Source: a virus (lineage: Duplodnaviria; Heunggongvirae; Uroviricota; Caudoviricetes). Taken from it: DNA of 5,040 nucleotides. Under the pieces are notes generated by a model. It was not told the DNA's origin, did no database searches, and saw nothing but the letters and a program-made list of their open reading frames with translations. Numbering within the stretch: position 1 is the stretch's first letter; the number at the start of each line of letters is the position of its first letter. The stretch lies in the IMG/VR virus record IMGVR_UViG_2681813201_000012; one strand, 5' to 3'. A program made the position numbers and the translations under genes. Positions 1 to 5,040 of the stretch are shown here, one piece after another.

Positions 1-12
1 TCAGCACTGACT

Positions 13-615
13 TCATGGCATGGCCATGAGCATTTTCACGTCCGCATCACCGTCTGCTGACGTCTGTGGCACGCCACCCTGTACCGCTGCCGGTGAATGG
101 TTCGCCATGATGCGTTCAAACAGGGCGGTTGTGGATGCAGAGACCGGTTCTGCCTTACCTGATCCCGCAGCCAGCACAGCCCGGGCGCTCTCCACAGTCA
201 TTCCCGGGCAGGCAGCCAGCTGTTCAGCCTGCGCCTCAGCCCCTTTTGCCTCATCCAGTGCCATGATCTGATCACGGAGTGAGGGTCCGGCATCCGCCTG
301 CGGTGAAGCAGCCAGGATCGGGCGGGCTTTTTCCACCGTCATCTCCGGCATCGCCGCCAGCGTTGCCGCCAGTTGTTCACGACCGTTCGCTTCTTCACAC
401 GCCATAATGCGATCGGCTTCACTCTGCGTGGATGCCACCGGCTGCTGCGGTGCCGCCGCGGCCAGAATCGCCCGGGCCTGTTCAACGCTCATGCCCTGTT
501 GTCCTGCCAGCATCGTGGCAAGCTGTTCACGTCCTTTCGCTTCCTGGCATGTCAGGATCCCCATCACTCGCTGGTTCTCCTGCGCGGCGGCTTCCGTTGC
601 AGTTAATTGCGGCAT
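13..615 (-). CDS. Nu3: Nu3-like scaffolding protein, nested in-frame in the 3' part of C (internal ATG at 615-613, same stop as C), about 200 aa
   Basis: There is an internal in-frame ATG (minus strand, plus coordinates 613-615) preceded by AGGAGG (plus 620-625) with a 4-nt spacer. This is the same arrangement as lambda, where Nu3 starts inside C after AGGAGGGCGA-ATG. The local context GG-T-M-PQL corresponds to lambda GG-R-M-TKE. Use of this internal start is inferred by analogy, not demonstrated. Confidence 0.55.
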   Translation of the reverse strand: MPQLTATEAAAQENQRVMGILTCQEAKGREQLATMLAGQQGMSVEQARAILAAAAPQQPVASTQSEADRIMACEEANGREQLAATLAAMPEMTVEKARPILAASPQADAGPSLRDQIMALDEAKGAEAQAEQLAACPGMTVESARAVLAAGSGKAEPVSASTTALFERIMANHSPAAVQGGVPQTSADGDADVKMLMAMP

Positions 616-1170
616 AGTGCCTCCTCTGACATTACTGTTCAGCGCCGTGGCCATCACACTGATGGCATCCGACGCATTGACTAATTCATCCGCCAGCCCG
701 GCATCAATGCCGTACTGACCTTCAAAAACGGCGGCCTCTGTTCCCGTGACGGCATCAACAGACAGACCGGTAAACATCGCCACTTTTTCGGCAAACATCC
801 GGCGCGCCGCATCAATGCGCTGCTGCATGTCCTGGCGAACCTCTGCCGGTAAGGCTTCAAACTGATTGCCATCCACCTTGTGCGTCCCTGAGTAAATCAG
901 CGTGATATCCACACCGGCCTGCGCCAGATGACCGGCATAGCTGACATGGCTCATCATCACGCCAATGGAGCCGATACGGGATGTCTGGGTAACCAGCCGT
1001 CGGGAGCAGGCCGACGCCAGCAGCATGGCTGCAGAACAGGCCGTGTCATTGCACAGTGCCCAGACCGGCTTCTGCTGACGGAGGCGGTAAATCATGTCAG
1101 CGCAGTCAAACGCGCCGGCGGCCTGCCCGCCCGGACTGTCAATGTCCAGCAGTACGCCCCGCACCTGGCT
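13..1170 (-). CDS. C: Head maturation protease / minor capsid protein C (S49 ClpP-like peptidase family), 5'-truncated by the N run; stop codon at 13-15
   Basis: The translation after the N run (SQVRGVLLDIDSPGGQAAGAFDCADMIYRLRQQKPVWALCNDTACSAAMLLASACSRRLVTQTSRIGSIGVMM...) aligns by recall with lambda gpC residues from about 120 onward (DGILLDMDTPGGMVAGAFDCADIIARVRDIKPVWALANDMNCSAGQLLASAASRRLVTQTARTGSIGVMM...). The first ~120 residues are absent, lost in the N run at 1171-1236. Gene order B then C matches lambda. Confidence 0.85.
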   Translation of the reverse strand, partial: SQVRGVLLDIDSPGGQAAGAFDCADMIYRLRQQKPVWALCNDTACSAAMLLASACSRRLVTQTSRIGSIGVMMSHVSYAGHLAQAGVDITLIYSGTHKVDGNQFEALPAEVRQDMQQRIDAARRMFAEKVAMFTGLSVDAVTGTEAAVFEGQYGIDAGLADELVNASDAISVMATALNSNVRGGTMPQLTATEAAAQENQRVMGILTCQEAKGREQLATMLAGQQGMSVEQARAILAAAAPQQPVASTQSEADRIMACEEANGREQLAATLAAMPEMTVEKARPILAASPQADAGPSLRDQIMALDEAKGAEAQAEQLAACPGMTVESARAVLAAGSGKAEPVSASTTALFERIMANHSPAAVQGGVPQTSADGDADVKMLMAMP

Positions 1171-1236
1171 NNNNNNNNNNNNNNNNNNNNNNNNNNNNNN
1201 NNNNNNNNNNNNNNNNNNNNNNNNNNNNNNNNNNNN
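1171..1236. other. Run of 66 N (assembly gap or masked sequence) spanning the B/C junction
   Basis: Directly visible run of n. B is readable only to about residue 275 on one side, and C starts at about residue 120 on the other, so roughly 1.1 kb of expected sequence is not represented. Confidence 0.95.
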
Positions 1237-2063
1237 GCTGCACATGCCTTCACAATGGCCGACTGAAGCTGTGTTGCCTGCAGGGAATCGAGCATCTTCA
1301 GCCGTTCCATTACGCTGTAAAACTGATTGGCCCCACGGGTCTGCCCGTCCTCCACCGGCTCGAAAATATGCAGCATGGCCGGACGCCCGGTGGGAAGTTC
1401 ACGCGGGATCCGTTCCCATCGTCCACTCCCAGAGAACGGAAAATCATCCTCACAGATATGGTACGCAACGGCACGGCCATATCGATCGACCTCCACACCG
1501 GCCCGCAGAAAACGGTTCCCCATACCGTGTCCTGGCGTGTCCACCCGTTTCGGACTCACGGCTTTAAAACGCGTACGAAACAGTTGCGTGCTCTCCGTAT
1601 CCCAGACCGGCTGCACAAAGATTTCGCCGTTAAACGCATGAACGCCCACACCTTCACGAATAAATTCCGTAAACGTGCGTTTCTCTTCCACGTCGATCTC
1701 GCCAGACATCCCTTCGGCGTATTCCGACCAGGCCGCCTCCACCTCATCGACAAAACTTTTTGCCGCAGTCTCCCGCATCCCCAGCCAGCGCCAGTTCGGA
1801 CGGTAGCTGATCAGAAACATATGCCCGACAATATGATCCTTATGCAGGGCCACCGCATTGGCCGCTATCCCGTTATTGCGCACCAGATCATCTGCCCGGG
1901 CATTCCCCAGACGCAACGCAGGCAGCAGGGCTGCATCGGCACTCTGCGCCGGTGGCAACCACTCCGCCATTTGCCCGCCAAATCCTGCGCCGCCCCCGTT
2001 GTAGCTGAGACTCTCACGAAGCGGAACGCCGTTCACATCAATCAGGACAGGCGTTCGTTTCAT
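1237..2063 (-). CDS. B: Portal protein (lambda gpB family), N-terminal ~275 aa readable; 3' part lost in the N run
   Basis: The translation MKRTPVLIDVNGVPLRESLSYNGGGAGFGGQMAEWLPPAQSADAALLPALRLGNARADDLVRNNGIAANAVALHKDHIVGHMFLISYRPNWRWLGMRETAAKSFVDEVEAAW... is recognisably lambda portal gpB and stays collinear to ...LQATQLQSAIVKA just before the N run. The ATG at 2063-2061 overlaps the W stop in an ATGA motif, as in lambda. The ORF-track end at 1092 is an artefact of reading through the N run. Confidence 0.9.
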
Positions 2064-2266
2064 AACCTCACTCCCAGCGGACGACGGCGACGTCGGGTTG
2101 TCCCCAGTACCGACTCCGCATCATTGATCGCCCGGTTAAGCTCATCCAGAGAAGCCGCCGTATATTCAATTCTGCGACCATCTTTCTGGACAGACACCAC
2201 CCGTTTACCGGTTAATAAATCAAGGCGCGCCTGACGTAGCGCCTGTAGTTCAGCGACTGTAACCAT
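2060..2266 (-). CDS. W: Head completion / head-tail joining protein (lambda gpW family), 68 aa
   Basis: 68 aa, the same length as lambda gpW. The core LLTGKRVVSVQKDGRRIEYTAAS matches lambda [23 protein letters not shown], and the C-terminal RRRRRP matches lambda QRRRGP. It sits between A and B as in lambda, with GGAGGAG upstream of the ATG at 2266. Confidence 0.85.
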   Translation of the reverse strand: MVTVAELQALRQARLDLLTGKRVVSVQKDGRRIEYTAASLDELNRAINDAESVLGTTRRRRRPLGVRL

Positions 2267-4305
2267 TCACTCCTCCGGACAGCTTCGCTGCCAGTTCTTT
2301 CAGGGTTGGCCGGGTCGTCTCTTCTTCCCGGGATTTTGCCAGTACAGCCAGATCAAGCTGCCAGCGTTGCACGGACACACGTAATGCCGCGTAGGCATAC
2401 ACCAGGCAGTCCAGCGCTTCGTTACGCCGCTTTTTGTTATCCCACAGCAGACGCATCTTTCCTTTTTCCCACTTCTCCACAAGCTCTTCCGCGACCAGTT
2501 GCTGCGCCTCTGTCTGCGAAAAAATCTCCGGATCATCAGGAAAACGGATGGCATACGACGTGGCTTCATCCGCAGGAGTGGGATCGGCTTTCATACGGGC
2601 ATAGAGAATTTCTTTTGCGGTGTCCGTCCCCACTTCACACAGATACACGCCCCGCTGATTGCGGGTTTTCGGCATGGTGATCACCGGCTTGCCATAGACA
2701 GATGCGCCTTTTACCGGCAGCACCCGGAAAACACCGTGTTTTTTTGACCTCTGATAGACAATTTCACCATCGATCCCCCCGGTGTCCCAGCAGACACGGG
2801 AAATGGTCATTTCGGTTCCGTCTGCATGGCAGTATTTTTTGTTGATCGCCGCATCCACACGTAACAGCGTCTCTTCCTCATCGGGACGGCCCATAATGAT
2901 GATTTTATCCACCAGAAAAGCTTCCTCCCCGNNNNNNNNNNNNNNNNNNNNNNNNNNNNNNNNNNNNNNNNNNNNNNNNNNNNNNNNNNNNNNNNNNNNN
3001 NNNNNNNNNNNNNNNNNNNNNNNNNNNNNNNNNNNNNNNNNNNNNNNNNNNNNNNNNNNNNNNNNNNNNNNNNNNNNNNNNNNNNNNNNNNNNNNNNNNN
3101 NNNNNNNNNNNNNNNNNNNNNNNNNNNNNNNNNNNNNNNNNNNNNNNNNNNNNNNNNNNNNNNNNNNNNNNNNNNNNNNNNNNNNNNNNNNNNNNNNNNN
3201 NNNNNNNNNNNNNNNNNNNNNNNNNNNNNNNNNNNNNNNNNNNNNNNNNNNNNNNNNNNNNNNNNNNNNNNNNNNNNNNNNNNNNNNNNNNNNNNNNNNN
3301 NNNNNNNNNNNNNNNNNNNNNNNNNNNNNNNNNNNNNNNNNNNNNNNNNNNNNNNNNNNNNNNNNNNNNNNNNNNNNNNNNNNNNNNNNNNNNNNNNNNN
3401 NNNNNNNNNNNNNNNNNNNNNNNNNNNNNNNNNNNNNNNNNNNNNNNNNNNNNNNNNNNNNNNNNNNNNNNNNNNNNNNNNNNNNNNNNNNNNNNNNNNN
3501 NNNNNNNNNNNNNNNNNNNNNNNNNNNNNNNNNNNNNNNNNNNNNNNNNNNNNNNNNNNNNNNNNNNNNNNNNNNNNNNNNNNNNNNNNNNNNNNNNNNN
3601 NNNNNNNNNNNNNNNNNNNNNNNNNNNNNNNNNNNNNNNNNNNNNNNNNNNNNNNNNNNNNNNNNNNNNNNNNNNNNNNNNNNNNNNNNNNNNNNNNNNN
3701 NNNNNNNNNNNNNNNNNNNNNNNNNNNNNNNNNNNNNNNNNNNNNNNNNNNNNNNNNNNNNNNNNNNNNNNNNNNNNNNNNNNNNNNNNNNNNNNNNNNN
3801 NNNNNNNNTGGTTGGCGCCTGCGCCGCCCAGGCACCAGAAACCGACGCCCGATGAAAAGCGTTTCAGCGTGAGAGTATTGTCACGATGTTTACGACCCAG
3901 CCATGGGGAAAGGTCTTTCAGGCATGGCACGTTCCGAATCGTCGCCTCCACGTGAGACTTCATAAAATCTTCAGCGGCAGAATCCGTGGGCTGAAAAAGC
4001 AGACTGTTTCGGGATTTATGCTCAATAAAATACCCGACCACCCCCAGCAACATCTTTGTATAGCCAACACGGGCAGATTTAATCAGGTTAACCGTGCGAA
4101 CCTGGTCGTTACCCATACAGTTCATAATGGCGATCTGGAATGGCAGCGTTTTCCATTCGCCCTCACCGTATGAGGATTCTTTAGGCAGATAATAATTTTG
4201 ATCAGCCCATTCAACTGCCGTCATTGGTACAACCCTGACCAGAGGCTGCAGCGCAACCGAAACGGCAGCCATCATATTATTCAGTTGTTGCTCTGATATA
4301 TTCAT
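2250..4305 (-). CDS. A: Terminase large subunit (lambda gpA family); N-terminal part at 3809-4305 and C-terminal part at 2250-2931 are readable, the middle (2932-3808) is N
   Basis: The N-terminal part from the ATG at 4305 (MNISEQQLNN...TAVEWADQNYYLPKESSYGEGEWKTLPFQIAIMNCMG...SARVGYTKMLLGV...FIEHK...RDNTLTLKRFSSGVGFWCLGG) aligns with lambda gpA residues 1 to about 165. The C-terminal part (GEEAFLVDKIIIMGRPDEEETLLRVDAAINKKY...ICWDTGGIDGEIVYQRSKKHGVFRVLPVKGASVYGKPV...WDNKKRRNEALDCLVYAYAALR) aligns with lambda gpA from about residue 417 to the end. The two parts are in different reading frames across the 877-nt N run, so the true length of the hidden sequence is unknown. The ORF-track start at 4362 is upstream of the lambda-like MNIS start. 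Confidence 0.9.
2932..3808. other. Run of 877 N (gap or masked sequence) inside the terminase large subunit gene
   Basis: Directly visible run of n. It replaces the region expected to encode gpA residues from about 167 to 416, including the ATPase centre. Confidence 0.95.
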
Positions 4306-4786
4306 CGAGTAAATCCGGTAATTTATCCCCTGCCCGCGCACACTGATTTGCCCCCTTAGCAATAAGGGTTTTCAGATGGTCAAGATGGCGCGGTGTTAAA
4401 TCAGGAAACTGTCGCTGCATGGATAAAGGGATGGAATCAAGCGTACTGGATAACGCCATTGCCAGCTTACTGAGGGCAAAAATACAGAACCCGGTGTCAA
4501 TAAGTTTTCCTTTTGACACCTCATTTTTTAACTGCTGTGTAACAGCCTGTTCTGCTGTCAGTTCCCATCTGGCAATAAGCAATTTCTCCTCATAGTCGTC
4601 TTCGCTATCGCCATCAGGCACATCGTTTTTACTTCTCCTCAGATACGATATGTAAAAATCGCGCCAGGCATCCAGATCCAGTTGCCCTCGCTTATTCGAT
4701 ATCGGGGCACCCGGCAATTTCTGCAATCTGCGAAGCTGGCGATCGGTCAGACTTAAATGCCTGGCAACTTCAGTCTGCGTAGCCAC
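4277..4786 (-). CDS. Nu1: Terminase small subunit (lambda gpNu1 family), 169 aa, probable GTG start
   Basis: The C-terminal two thirds (LIARWELTAEQAVTQQLKNEVSKGKLIDTGFCIFALSKLAMALSSTLDSIPLSMQRQFPDLTPRHLDHLK...LPDLLDEYI) align with lambda Nu1 (...ELKNARDSAEVVETAFCTFVLSRIAGEIASILDGLPLSVQRRFPELENRHVDFLK...IPGLLSEYI). The N-terminal ~50 aa (MATQTEVARHLSLTDRQLRRLQKLPG...) are a different helix-turn-helix-like sequence. The gene overlaps the A start by 29 nt, as Nu1/A overlap in lambda, and lies immediately downstream of cosB. The first in-frame start after an upstream TGA is the GTG at 4786-4784, with GAGG 6 nt upstream. Confidence 0.8.
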   Translation of the reverse strand: MATQTEVARHLSLTDRQLRRLQKLPGAPISNKRGQLDLDAWRDFYISYLRRSKNDVPDGDSEDDYEEKLLIARWELTAEQAVTQQLKNEVSKGKLIDTGFCIFALSKLAMALSSTLDSIPLSMQRQFPDLTPRHLDHLKTLIAKGANQCARAGDKLPDLLDEYIRATTE

Positions 4787-4832
4787 TCCTCACCTCGCAA
4801 AAACTCTCACCTCACAATCACAACAAAACCGG

Positions 4833-4844
4833 TCATGTCCGGTT
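4833..4844 (+). repeat. R-like element copy 1 (TCATGTCCGGTT), candidate small-terminase binding site; part of the dyad AACCGG-TCATGT-CCGGTT at 4827-4844
   Basis: Exact 11-bp match CATGTCCGGTT shared with 4864-4874 and, inverted, with 4922-4932. Position is analogous to lambda cosB R1, proximal to Nu1. Confidence 0.45.
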
Positions 4845-4862
4845 TACATGTCTGTTTTTTGT

Positions 4863-4874
4863 TCATGTCCGGTT
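4863..4874 (+). repeat. R-like element copy 2 (TCATGTCCGGTT), direct repeat of copy 1 about 30 bp away
   Basis: Exact repeat of CATGTCCGGTT, with a spacing of about three helical turns from copy 1. Confidence 0.45.
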
Positions 4875-4920
4875 CACAGAAGACCTGTTTTTATATTTTT
4901 CATATAGTTAACTTGAAGAG

Positions 4921-4932
4921 AAACCGGACATG
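4921..4932 (-). repeat. R-like element copy 3 (inverted: AACCGGACATG on the plus strand), cosN-proximal, analogous in position to lambda R3
   Basis: Exact reverse complement of the 11-bp element, located about 38 bp from cosN. Confidence 0.45.
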
Positions 4933-4969
4933 GATCCCGGAAAATTTTCATAAATAGCGAAAACCCGCG

Positions 4970-4981
4970 AGGTCGCCGCCC
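4970..4981 (-). promoter_or_regulatory. cosN: cosN: the 12-bp cohesive-end sequence GGGCGGCGACCT (minus strand), the terminase nicking site
   Basis: Minus strand reads ...GATCCGACAGGTTACG / GGGCGGCGACCT / CGCGGGTTTTCGC..., which is the lambda right end, the 12-nt cohesive end and the lambda left end as I recall them. The junction is intact, as expected in a prophage, a circular form or a concatemer. Confidence 0.85.
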
Positions 4982-5040
4982 CGTAACCTGTCGGATCGCC
5001 GGAAAGGACCCGCAAAATGATAATAATTATCATCTACATG
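4982..5040 (-). promoter_or_regulatory. cosQ: Right terminus of the virion genome (cosQ-containing region), immediately upstream of cosN in packaging orientation
   Basis: Minus strand reads CATGTAGATGATAATTATTATCATTTTGCGGGTCCTTTCCGGCGATCCGACAGGTTACG, near-identical to my recollection of the last ~60 bp of the lambda genome. I cannot fix the exact cosQ boundaries from memory. Confidence 0.5.

What the first reader, a model, noticed from the sequence alone, without database searches (positions are those of the whole stretch)
4787..4981. Lambda-identical cosN joined to non-lambda cosB repeats and a diverged Nu1 DNA-binding N-terminus
cosN and the ~35 bp beside it match the lambda left end as I recall it. 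The sequence diverges at the point where lambda R3 begins, and three copies of CATGTCCGGTT appear instead (two direct at 4834-4844 and 4864-4874, one inverted at 4922-4932), flanking an AT-rich tract. In parallel, the Nu1 homolog keeps the lambda-like C-terminal gpA-interaction region but has an unrelated N-terminal ~50 aa. This is the pattern expected when the small subunit and its binding sites are exchanged together as a module, as is known for lambda versus phage 21.
Basis: partly seen in the sequence, partly recalled or inferred. Interest (0 to 1): 0.5.

Follow-up and report, generated by a model that had tools for sequence, protein, structure and literature searches.

The report
Lambdoid cos site, uncharacterised terminase specificity
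This is the DNA-packaging start site of a phage-21-like prophage common in E. coli, in which the small terminase subunit and its repeated binding sites have been replaced together by a different, apparently unstudied version that is built the same way as in phage lambda.

Summary
Window 4937-4981 matches the lambda left end 45/45, and identity stops at bp 46. CATGTCCGGTT occurs exactly three times (0.01 expected).

Counted from the cohesive end, the copies lie at bp 50-60 (forward), 108-118 (inverted) and 138-148/145-155 (overlapping inverted and forward). Lambda has R3/R2/R1 at 51/109/153 and phage 21 at 52/112/152. An I1-like IHF core sits in the AT-rich spacer, and the small-subunit gene starts at bp 196. 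This is a lambda-type tripartite cosB.

The small subunit's N-terminus is not unrelated. It is a remote homologue of the gpNu1 winged helix-turn-helix.

Relatives with the same recognition helix keep ATGTCCGGTT at the same positions in otherwise diverged DNA. A relative with two helix substitutions has CATTTCCGGTT in R3 and R2 and CTTCCGGTT in R1. More distant relatives carry TTCCGGTTCCGGT.

The sequenced distal part of the window is 97-98% phage 21. Relative to 21, a cassette (cosB, gene 1 and the 5' end of gene 2) was replaced.

The cassette is in at least 1148 of 5426 complete E. coli genomes and in phages PhiR12_1-5. It matches no characterised phage. The mechanism is ordinary, the specificity allele is new, and binding is untested.

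The parts
5005..5011 (-). cosQ-like heptamer GGGTCCT, 30 nt before bp 1 of the cohesive end
   Evidence: Sequence. The same heptamer lies at the same distance in phage 21 and in the divergent relatives L085, L087, L089, L091, L094 and L099. Naming it cosQ rests on my knowledge of lambda and on PMC4669245 (7-bp conserved cosQ).
4970..4981 (-). 12-nt cohesive-end sequence GGGCGGCGACCT (core of cosN)
   Evidence: Identical to lambda bp 1-12 and to phage 21. Cleavage itself was not tested.
4937..4981 (-). Stretch 45/45 identical to the lambda left end (cosN plus the I2 region)
   Evidence: blastn 100% over 45 bp. Megablast identity ends at window 4937. The phage 21 record annotates an IHF I2 site at its bp 30-44, equivalent to window 4938-4952.
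4922..4932 (-). R3-equivalent repeat CATGTCCGGTT, phage bp 50-60, forward
   Evidence: Exact copy. Same position as lambda R3 (51-64) and 21 R3 (52-60). Invariant in all 22 cos haplotypes from 79 sequences (77 IMG/VR loci, PhiR12_1 and the window). Retained as GATGTCCGGTT at the same position in diverged loci L085 and L087.
4898..4910 (+). I1-like IHF core TTTCATATAGTTA (phage bp 72-84) within the AT-rich spacer 4875-4921
   Evidence: Two mismatches to WATCAANNNNTTR, which is not significant alone (23 matches against 23.8 expected). TAACTATATG aligns with lambda TAACTTAATG (bp 75-84) and with 21 TAACTTTTTG, which is annotated as IHF I1 in M81255. Same orientation as in lambda.
4864..4874 (+). 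R2-equivalent repeat, phage bp 108-118, inverted relative to R3'
   Evidence: Exact copy. R3-to-R2 start-to-start spacing is 58 bp, as in lambda (51 to 109). Same position relative to cosQ in L001, L085, L087 and L089.
4834..4844 (+). Third exact copy, phage bp 138-148, inverted
   Evidence: In some haplotypes it reads AGCCGGACATG. It is retained (10 of 11) in the divergent haplotype, carried by two loci, that lacks the forward copy.
4827..4837 (-). R1-candidate CATGACCGGTT (one mismatch), phage bp 145-155, forward as in lambda R1
   Evidence: The position compares with lambda R1 (153-166), 21 R1 (152-160) and the forward CACTTCCGGTT of L089. Which of the two overlapping copies acts as R1 is unresolved.
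4826..4845 (-). Near-palindrome AAACCGGACATGACCGGTTT followed by TGTTGTG (terminator-like hairpin formed by the two overlapping copies)
   Evidence: Terminator-pattern scan. RNA fold -11.5 kcal/mol, z -2.1.
4622..4786 (-). Codons 1-55 of the small subunit: winged helix-turn-helix DNA-binding domain; proposed recognition helix DRQLRRLQK (aa 15-23)
4277..4786 (-). Terminase small subunit gene (GTG start, 169 aa, stop included)
   Evidence: ORF. Pfam Phage_Nu1 aa 49-150. RefSeq annotates 'terminase small subunit'. 99.4% identical in phages PhiR12_2 and PhiR12_4 (listed rows; five phage records at >=99%).
4232..4940 (-). Replaced 'specificity cassette' relative to phage 21: cosB, the whole small-subunit gene and the first ~75 nt of the large-subunit gene (ATG at 4305)
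   Evidence: No blastn similarity to phage 21 or lambda between phage bp 42 and 750. Flanks are 90.8% (cos side) and 79.5%, then 97-98.5% (head genes) identical to phage 21. The large subunit aligns with 21 gp2 only from residue 17 (79% identity over 146 aa).

Best explanation
The region is the cos site of a lambdoid, phage-21-like prophage. It has a lambda-identical cosQ-cosN-I2 segment followed by a tripartite cosB of the lambda design: R3, an IHF site, an inverted R2, then R1.

The R sequences have the core (C/G)ATGTCCGGTT. [quoted passage not shown]

Inferred mechanism, by analogy with lambda: IHF bends the AT-rich spacer so that R3 and the inverted R2, 58 bp apart, face each other. A dimer of small-subunit DNA-binding domains docks on them. 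The C-terminal part of the small subunit holds the large subunit, which nicks cosN 50 bp away.

cosB, the small-subunit gene and the 5' end of the large-subunit gene behave as one exchangeable specificity cassette set in a phage-21-type head operon.

Shown here: the sequence anatomy, the positional equivalence, the fold, the co-variation with relatives and the mosaic boundaries. Inferred only: binding, bending, cutting and packaging specificity.
For: Anatomy.
- Repeat positions are 50/108/145 bp, against lambda 51/109/153 and phage 21 52/112/152.
- The gene starts at bp 196, against 191 and 189.
- The I1-like core aligns with the lambda and 21 I1 sites.
- The repeat count is far above chance.

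Conservation.
- 79 sequences (77 IMG/VR loci, PhiR12_1 and the window), all encoding a ~99%-identical small subunit, give 22 cos haplotypes.
- R3' never varies, while spacers 85-106 and 119-136 are riddled with changes.

Co-variation.
- Loci L085 and L087 have small subunits 63-69% identical overall, with an identical recognition helix RQLRRLQKLPGAP and different cohesive-end and spacer sequences. They keep GATGTCCGGTTT and an inverted AACCGGACATG at the same distances.
- L089/L090 have the helix RQLRNLQKQPGAP. They carry CATTTCCGGTT, an inverted AACCGGAAATG and a forward ACTTCCGGTT. The G-to-T change is therefore in R3 and R2 and in the equivalent position of R1. It lies at the repeat position that aligns with lambda/21 specificity bp 56 (PMC4669245).
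- Six further distant members of the same N-terminal family carry TTCCGGTTCCGGT or a close variant upstream of the gene. They include a Pseudomonas phage.

Protein.
- hhalign to gpNu1 aa 4-52: E 2.9e-5.
- PHROG 57 covers lambda, 21 and this protein in register.
- AF2 pLDDT is 87.8.

Mosaic.
- One search gives the boundaries. Searches cover the large subunit.

Likely functional.
- Five sequenced phages, PhiR12_1 to 5, carry this cosB. PhiR12_1, read directly, has the same repeats, and PhiR12_2 and _4 (the listed rows) encode a 99.4% identical small subunit. Their records give laboratory strains as hosts.
Against: - There is no binding, footprint, cleavage or packaging datum for this allele. I found none in the searchable literature.
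- Within the near-identical E. coli set, repeat columns are less variable than non-repeat columns only marginally: 5/40 against 22/75, Fisher p = 0.063.
- The IHF match has two mismatches and is not significant on its own.
- It is unresolved which of the two overlapping copies at 4827-4845 is R1. That element also looks like a terminator hairpin.
- Foldseek E-values for the fold match are 0.3-1.3.
- In the one O157:H7 copy inspected, the large-subunit and portal genes are frameshifted, so many copies are relics.
- The window's own large-subunit gene is interrupted by an N run.
Confidence: 0.8

Rival explanations
1. Same function, different history. The DNA-binding domain and the R sites diverged together in place from a common ancestor of lambda, 21 and this phage (co-evolution), rather than being brought in as a foreign module.
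For: The R cores look like a graded series when aligned from cosN: lambda CGTTTCCGTTC, 21 CGTGTCGGTAC, window CATGTCCGGTT, L089 CATTTCCGGTT. The DNA-binding domain is a remote homologue of gpNu1, not a different fold. The architecture and spacings are conserved.
Against: The flanking head genes are 97-98.5% identical to phage 21, while bp 42-750 has no detectable DNA similarity to it. That abrupt change indicates recombination, not gradual drift. Domain identities are discordant: the N-domain is 61% identical to a Pseudomonas phage but 20-24% to lambda and 21, while the C-domain is about 40% to all three. P0060's C-domain is closer to lambda (55%) than to the window (47%).
Confidence: 0.12
2. 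The repeats serve something other than terminase. The palindrome at 4826-4845 could be an intrinsic terminator or RNA element at the start of the head operon. The other copies could be sites for a host or phage regulator.
For: Terminator-like pattern and a modestly stable hairpin. CCGG-centred half-palindromes are typical of many dimeric regulators.
Against: The hairpin is not conserved in relatives, which keep only single copies (L085, L087, L089). The copies track the small subunit's recognition helix and sit at fixed distances from cosQ/cosN. The motif occurs nowhere else in 80-odd loci of 3.5 kb. No promoter-like site lies nearby.
Confidence: 0.05
3. It is a dead relic. The cos/terminase cassette in this particular genome no longer works, and the repeats are conserved only by recency.
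For: The O157:H7 copy inspected has frameshifted large-subunit and portal genes. Many E. coli copies are 100% identical, so little time has passed for decay. The window has N gaps.
Against: Repeats persist at fixed positions in relatives with a 63-69% identical small subunit and strongly diverged spacers. Sequenced phages PhiR12_1-5 carry the cassette with intact genes. This rival concerns only the individual copy, not what the element is.
Confidence: 0.03

Closest known systems
Bacteriophage lambda cos (cosQ-cosN-I2-R3-I1-R2-R1) with gpNu1
   Same: The cohesive end and the next 33 bp are identical. The order, orientation and spacing of the repeats are the same (R3 at about bp 50, R2 inverted 58 bp further on, R1 at about bp 150). 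There is an I1-like core in the spacer, and the small-subunit gene starts at about bp 190. [quoted passage not shown]
   Different: The R core is CATGTCCGGTT instead of CGTTTCC(T/G)TTCT. The DNA-binding domain is 20% identical, has a wing about 5 residues shorter and is not aligned by the Pfam Nu1 profile. The residues aligned with lambda specificity positions Q20/E24 are R19/K23. There is an extra inverted copy overlapping R1. The head genes are only 66-68% identical at DNA level.
Bacteriophage 21 cos and gene 1/gene 2 terminase (GenBank M81255)
   Same: This is the nearest backbone. Window 1-1170 and 1237-2930 (3' part of the large subunit, gpW, portal, protease/scaffold) are 97-98.5% identical at DNA level. 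The large subunit is 79% identical over aa 18-163. The cosB layout is the same, and the R core TCATGTCGG differs from TCATGTCCGG by one base.
   Different: There is no DNA similarity from bp 42 to 750. The small subunit is 24% (N-domain) and 38% (C-domain) identical. The first ~17 residues of the large subunit differ. So it is not the phage 21 specificity allele.
Phage N15 / Monarch group (simple versus complex cosB; Feiss and co-workers, PMC4669245)
   Same: It is another lambda-like packaging specificity with its own recognition helix and R sequence. The family seen here also appears in both a complex form (this window, L089) and a simple form with a single site next to the start codon (L094, L098, L004). 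One haplotype shows an R2-R1 deletion of the kind proposed for the origin of N15's simple cosB.
   Different: The small subunit of N15 matches only aa 59-164 (42.7%). The R sequences are different.
PICI cos-rpp modules (Fillol-Salom et al.; PDB 6hn7)
   Different: PICI cos sites are described as lacking repeated R sequences (PMC9026076). Rpp genes are not followed by a large-subunit gene. Here a full terminase and head operon follows, and the protein carries the Nu1 C-terminal domain.

Membership tests
Lambda-like cos site with complex (tripartite) cosB | 12-nt cohesive-end sequence / cosN of the lambda type | tested here: met
   GGGCGGCGACCT plus 33 further bp are identical to lambda. Actual nicking was not tested.
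Lambda-like cos site with complex (tripartite) cosB | Conserved cosQ heptamer about 30 bp before the cohesive end | tested here: met
   GGGTCCT at window 5005-5011, 30 nt before bp 1. It is conserved in phage 21 and in divergent relatives.
Lambda-like cos site with complex (tripartite) cosB | Three R repeats, with R2 inverted relative to R3 and R1, and R3 at about bp 50 | tested here: met
   Copies lie at bp 50-60 (+), 108-118 (-) and 145-155 (+, one mismatch), plus an extra inverted copy at 138-148.
Lambda-like cos site with complex (tripartite) cosB | IHF site (I1) between R3 and R2 | tested here: inconclusive
   Two-mismatch consensus match at 4898-4910, no better than chance on its own. 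It is positionally and sequence-wise homologous to the lambda I1 site and to the annotated 21 I1 site.
Lambda-like cos site with complex (tripartite) cosB | The small subunit binds the R sequences and positions the large subunit for cosN nicking | not testable with these tools
   Only comparative support is available: co-variation of the recognition helix with the repeat sequence.
gpNu1-type terminase small subunit (Pfam PF07471 Phage_Nu1) | Central and C-terminal Nu1 region | tested here: met
   E 1e-18, 67.9 bits (cut-off 30), aa 49-150 aligned to profile positions 62-163.
gpNu1-type terminase small subunit (Pfam PF07471 Phage_Nu1) | N-terminal gpNu1 DNA-binding domain as modelled by profile positions 1-61 | tested here: not met
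   The Pfam alignment does not extend into aa 1-48. There is no sequence hit to PDB gpNu1 entries.
gpNu1-type terminase small subunit (Pfam PF07471 Phage_Nu1) | Winged helix-turn-helix fold of the MerR/excisionase type at the N-terminus (fold-level homology) | tested here: met
Phage 21 packaging specificity (cosB-21 / gp1) | R sequences of the 21 type (TTCATGTCGGnCCTT) | tested here: not met
   The core differs by one inserted C, and the flanks differ. No blastn similarity over cosB.
Phage 21 packaging specificity (cosB-21 / gp1) | gp1 recognition helix (PRTIERWQSQ) | tested here: not met
   The window has DRQLRRLQKL, and the N-domain is 24% identical.
Lambda packaging specificity (cosB-lambda / gpNu1) | Lambda R sequences and recognition helix | tested here: not met
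   Identity to lambda ends at bp 45. The N-domain is 20% identical.
PICI cos-rpp redirecting module | cos without R repeats, followed by a short rpp gene and no terminase large subunit | tested here: not met
   Repeats are present. The gene carries the Nu1 C-domain and overlaps a GpA-type large-subunit gene by 29 nt.

The most novel reading that the evidence does not exclude
This is a further, so far uncharacterised packaging specificity class of the lambda-like phages. A 'MATQxEVAxHL...DRQxRxL' winged-helix small subunit reads TCCGGTT-core R sites. The class is found from E. coli (about a fifth of complete genomes, including O157:H7 and O145) to Pseudomonas and Aeromonas phages. It occurs in both complex and simple cosB forms and moves as a cosB-TerS-TerL(N-terminus) cassette between head operons. 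The natural G/T difference at repeat position 4, paired with R20N/L24Q in the recognition helix, would give a ready-made specificity code next to the lambda/21 pair. The allele could insulate these prophages from cross-packaging by co-resident lambda-, 21- or phi80-type phages and from PICI hijacking.
Probability: 0.55. Interest if true: 0.45.

Novelty: new member of a known kind. Interest (0 to 1): 0.33.

Why it matters
Packaging specificity decides which DNA a phage or a satellite can put into capsids. It therefore decides which co-resident prophages in pathogenic E. coli (several lambdoid prophages per genome) can help, exclude or mobilise each other.

The lambda/21 pair has been the main genetic model for small-subunit/cosB recognition. 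A third natural allele on a phage-21 backbone would extend that model cheaply. It has conserved geometry, a clearly different recognition helix, a shorter wing and natural helix/site co-variants.

The practical value is modest: better cos and terminase annotation in E. coli prophages, and a candidate orthogonal cos/terminase pair for cosmid or in vivo packaging tools.

Nothing here challenges the known mechanism.

Tried and rejected
- Sequence search of the whole protein and of an N-domain profile against PDB gave only generic helix-turn-helix noise and no gpNu1 hit.
- Pfam on the N-domain alone gave only a sub-threshold Sigma70_r3 hit. NCBIfam gave nothing.
- The word-indexed protein search returned almost only fragments of the same protein. 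The exhaustive representative search was needed to find the family.
- A scan of genome contigs with a four-sequence alignment matched 75 stretches, but none was confirmed. A 23-sequence alignment was too diverse to search with.
- The key closed-access papers (Sippy et al. 2015, PMC5006951; Feiss et al. 2015, PMC4461450) are not held. I therefore could not check whether their prophage surveys mention this allele.
- Full-text searches for the repeat sequence and for the PhiR12 names found nothing relevant.
- The IHF consensus scan alone is uninformative.
- The within-family conservation test is only marginal, p = 0.063.
- Identity with phage 21, lambda, phi80, N15, Gifsy-1 and a PICI rpp module was considered and rejected.
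Full report
**1. What is there**

All genes in the window run on the - strand. They form the left end of a lambdoid head operon:
- protease/scaffold, 13-1245
- portal, about 1092-2063
- gpW homologue, 2060-2266
- large terminase subunit, ATG at 4305, interrupted by an N run
- small terminase subunit, 4277-4786, GTG start, 169 aa
- cos, to the right of 4786

Read on the - strand, window 4981 is bp 1 of the sequence GGGCGGCGACCT, so phage bp n = 4982 - n.

**2. Check of the observation**

Bp 1-45 (window 4937-4981) are 45/45 identical to the lambda left end. Megablast identity to lambda-like phages covers only window 5040-4937 and stops there. It reaches 100% to phages such as 2H10, Kati and Turner, and 96.1% to lambda.

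CATGTCCGGTT occurs exactly three times, at the stated coordinates. The expectation is 0.01, and none of 200 shuffles reaches three.

A fourth copy with one mismatch (CATGACCGGTT, 4827-4837, - strand) overlaps the copy at 4834-4844. Together they form the near-palindrome AAACCGGACATGACCGGTTT.

The spacer 4875-4921 is 72% A+T (counted).

The small subunit matches Pfam Phage_Nu1 only over aa 49-150. It aligns with lambda Nu1 only over aa 73-164 and with phage 21 gp1 only over aa 64-166.

**3. Architecture compared with lambda and phage 21**

For phage 21, bp 1 is nt 167 of M81255, and the record annotates the R3, I1, R2 and R1 sites themselves.

| Element | Window (bp) | Lambda (bp) | Phage 21 (bp) |
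|---|---|---|---|
| R3 | 50-60, forward | 51-64, forward | 52-60, forward |
| R2 | 108-118, inverted | 109-122, inverted | 112-120, inverted |
| Extra copy | 138-148, inverted | none | none |
| R1 | 145-155, forward, one mismatch | 153-166, forward | 152-160, forward |
| Small-subunit gene start | 196 | 191 | 189 |

The R3-to-R2 start-to-start distance is 58 bp in both the window and lambda.

In a four-way alignment the spacer shares a core: TAACTATATG in the window, TAACTTAATG in lambda and TAACTTTTTG in phage 21. In phage 21 this is the annotated IHF I1 site.

The window sequence matches WATCAANNNNTTR with two mismatches at 4898-4910, in the same orientation as lambda I1. By my own count lambda I1 fits the consensus no better. 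On its own such a match is no better than chance.

GGGTCCT (cosQ) lies 30 nt before bp 1.

The anatomy is therefore that of a lambda-type complex cosB, R3-I1-R2-R1, as described in PMC9026076 and PMC4669245.

**4. The small subunit's N-terminus is diverged, not unrelated**

- A 22-sequence profile of the N-terminal domain aligns with lambda gpNu1 residues 4-52 over 44 columns. Probability is 74% and E 2.9e-5, with a wing about five residues shorter.
- PHROG 57 ('terminase small subunit') covers the window protein, lambda Nu1, phage 21 gp1 and a Pseudomonas phage protein end to end and in register. The N-domain alone scores E 3.4e-10.
- An AlphaFold2 model has mean pLDDT 87.8, and 86-93 over aa 1-50. 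It shows helix 4-10, helix 15-22, a loop/wing and helix 38-55.
- Foldseek lists MerR/excisionase-type domains first, but at non-significant E-values.
- Under the hhalign register, lambda specificity residues Q20 and E24 (PMC4669245) correspond to R19 and K23 here.

**5. Evidence that the repeats and the domain belong together**

(a) Conservation within close relatives. A viral-contig scan returned 80 loci whose small subunit is about 99% identical. Seventy-seven of them reach back to cosN; with PhiR12_1 and the window they give 79 sequences and 22 cos haplotypes.
- R3' never varies.
- R2' and the R1 palindrome vary rarely.
- Spacers 85-106 and 119-136 are full of substitutions.
- As a formal test this is only marginal: 5 of 40 repeat columns vary against 22 of 75 others, p = 0.063.

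(b) More distant relatives with the same helix. Loci L085 and L087 encode small subunits 63-69% identical to the window's overall, with an identical recognition helix (RQLRRLQKLPGAP).
- Their cohesive-end and spacer sequences differ.
- GATGTCCGGTTT and an inverted AACCGGACATG still sit at the same distances from cosQ/cosN.

(c) A relative with a changed helix. Loci L089 and L090 have the helix RQLRNLQKQPGAP.
- They carry CATTTCCGGTT, an inverted AACCGGAAATG and a forward ACTTCCGGTT.
- The G-to-T change at repeat position 4 is thus in R3 and R2, and R1 has T at the equivalent position, along with two helix substitutions.
- Aligned from cosN, that position corresponds to the lambda/21 specificity base pair 56 (T in lambda, G in 21; PMC4669245).

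(d) The wider N-terminal family. The exhaustive protein search found a broad family with this N-terminus, consensus MATQxEVAxHLxLSDRQVRxL.
- Upstream DNA of further members carries TTCCGGTTCCGGT or close variants just before the start codon or within 200 bp. These are L094, L093, L098, L099, L101 and Pseudomonas phage LPPA33.
- L091 has TTTCCAGTTCCGC. L092 and L100 differ.

(e) The motif occurs nowhere else in these 3.5-kb loci.

Together these results support cognate recognition, but they are comparative only.

**6. History: a replaced cassette on a phage-21 backbone**

The table shows blastn identity of the reverse-complemented window to phage 21.

| Window | Phage bp | Identity to phage 21 |
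|---|---|---|
| 5038-4941 | -56 to 41 | 90.8% |
| 4940-4232 | 42 to 750 | no similarity |
| 4231-3821 | 751 to 1161 | 79.5% |
| 2930-1237 | 2052 to 3745 | 97.2% |
| 1170-1 | 3812 to 4981 | 98.5% |

Lambda is only 66-68% identical in the head genes.

The large subunit is 79% identical to 21 gp2 from residue 18 and 66% to lambda gpA. Its first ~17 residues (MNISEQQLNNMMAAVSV) do not resemble 21's (MISDAQKAANAAGAIAT).

Relative to its nearest backbone, the replaced unit is therefore cosB, the whole small-subunit gene and the 5' end of the large-subunit gene. In lambda/21 hybrids these are the parts that carry cosB specificity and the small-subunit/large-subunit contact (PMC9026076, section 1.2, for the small subunit; the large-subunit N-terminal contact is from my knowledge of the Feiss laboratory's hybrid-phage work).

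Domain identities are discordant.

| Comparison | N-domain identity | C-domain identity |
|---|---|---|
| Window vs Pseudomonas phage LPPA33 | 61% | 40% |
| Window vs lambda | 20% | 42% |
| Window vs phage 21 | 24% | 38% |
| Window vs P0060 | 67% | 47% |
| Lambda vs P0060 | 27% | 55% |

The N-domain tracks LPPA33, while the C-domain is equally distant from all three phages. P0060's C-domain is closer to lambda than to the window. This suggests additional shuffling between domains in the family's history.

The R cores of lambda, 21, the window and L089 look like variants of one ancestral site. The 'module' is therefore a diverged homologue, not an unrelated invention.

**7. Distribution and prior knowledge**

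- The 341-bp cos-to-gene-start segment is 100% identical in many E. coli genomes, including O157:H7 and O145. It is covered at 80% or more in 1148 of 5426 complete genomes.
- RefSeq calls the gene 'terminase small subunit'. Some sources call it 'Qin prophage Nu1-like'.
- Among 50,697 phage records, only PhiR12_1 to 5 carry this cosB. These are 2025 GenBank entries with laboratory strains given as hosts. Five phage records (those listed are PhiR12_2 and _4, 99.4%) encode the small subunit at 99% identity or more.
- Lambda, 21, phi80, N15 and Gifsy-1 match only the C-terminal half of the small subunit. Phage 21's own cosB differs.
- I found no paper describing this allele. The most relevant closed-access surveys are not held.

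**8. Rivals**

- Gradual co-evolution in place fits the site and domain homology. It does not fit the abrupt 0% to 97% identity step relative to phage 21.
- A terminator or regulatory role is conceivable for the palindrome at 4826-4845. It does not explain the conserved geometry or the co-variation.
- Individual copies may be dead. The O157:H7 copy inspected has frameshifted large-subunit and portal genes.

**9. Verdict**

This is a real, well-formed lambda-type cos site with an alternative, apparently uncharacterised cosB/small-subunit specificity allele on a phage-21-like head operon.

It works like lambda cosB by every test available here. It is a member of the lambda-like cos/terminase kind. 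It is not a member of the lambda or phage 21 specificity groups.

I rate it a new member of a known kind and of modest interest. Direct binding and packaging assays are the missing step.

Noticed in passing
window 1171-1236 and 2932-3808: Two runs of N. Compared with phage 21, the 66-N run stands for about 1100 bp (21 nt 3819-4920) and the 877-N run for 764 bp (21 nt 1359-2123). The gaps are therefore not length-faithful. ORFs that span them (the large subunit, portal and protease junctions) cannot be judged for integrity.
   Followed up: partly
window 4789-4817: A tandem 17-bp duplication of a Shine-Dalgarno-like block lies just before the GTG start (phage strand TTGTGAGGTGAG ... TTGCGAGGTGAG). 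One IMG/VR haplotype lacks one copy, so it is a length polymorphism.
   Followed up: partly
IMG/VR loci among L005-L084 (haplotypes): One haplotype has lost the 30 bp between the second and third repeat copies. This looks like unequal crossing-over between repeats, the route proposed in PMC4669245 for the origin of N15's simple cosB. Another haplotype (two loci) has a completely different R1 region and keeps only the inverted third copy.
   Followed up: partly
L004 140-160; L093, L094, L098 just upstream of the start codon; L101 about 190 bp upstream: Distant members of the same small-subunit N-terminal family, from Pseudomonas phage LPPA33 and from metagenomic contigs, carry a tandem TTCCGGTTCCGGT motif. 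Where cosQ/cosN can be recognised (L094, L099), it lies about 50 bp after the putative cohesive end and right before the gene. This is a 'simple cosB' form of the same recognition system.
   Followed up: partly
window 4922-4932 versus M81255 nt 216-331: The repeat core here (TCATGTCCGG) differs from the phage 21 R core (TCATGTCGG) by a single inserted C. Yet the two small-subunit DNA-binding domains are only 24% identical. Whether 21 terminase has residual affinity for this cosB is open.
   Followed up: no
window 4908-5033 (- strand), 41-aa ORF: A short ORF runs across cosQ/cosN. The equivalent is annotated 'hypothetical protein' in PhiR12_1 and several other phage records. It is probably an annotation artefact, since it would be cut in every packaged genome.
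   Followed up: no
protein P0059 (2465 aa) and P0083 (349 aa): The 62-aa DNA-binding-domain query hit a 2465-residue protein in 19 separate stretches and a 349-residue protein in 6 stretches. These proteins appear to be built from many tandem copies of a similar helix-turn-helix unit. They are not part of this locus.
   Followed up: no
L095 (E. coli O157:H7 PV15-279, NZ_AP018488.1 2680591-2694931): In this genome the 100%-identical cos/small-subunit cassette sits in a typical EHEC lambdoid prophage: tRNA-Ile/Arg/Arg, a SASA esterase, the lysis genes and a PerC-family regulator lie just before cos. The large-subunit, portal and major capsid genes there are frameshifted or truncated.
   Followed up: partly
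window 4159-4305 versus lambda gpA and 21 gp2: The first ~35 residues of the large subunit (MNIS...TAVEWAD) resemble lambda gpA more than 21 gp2. The protein becomes 21-like from about residue 36 and is 97% 21-like at DNA level after the N gap. So there is a graded junction inside the large-subunit gene.
   Followed up: partly
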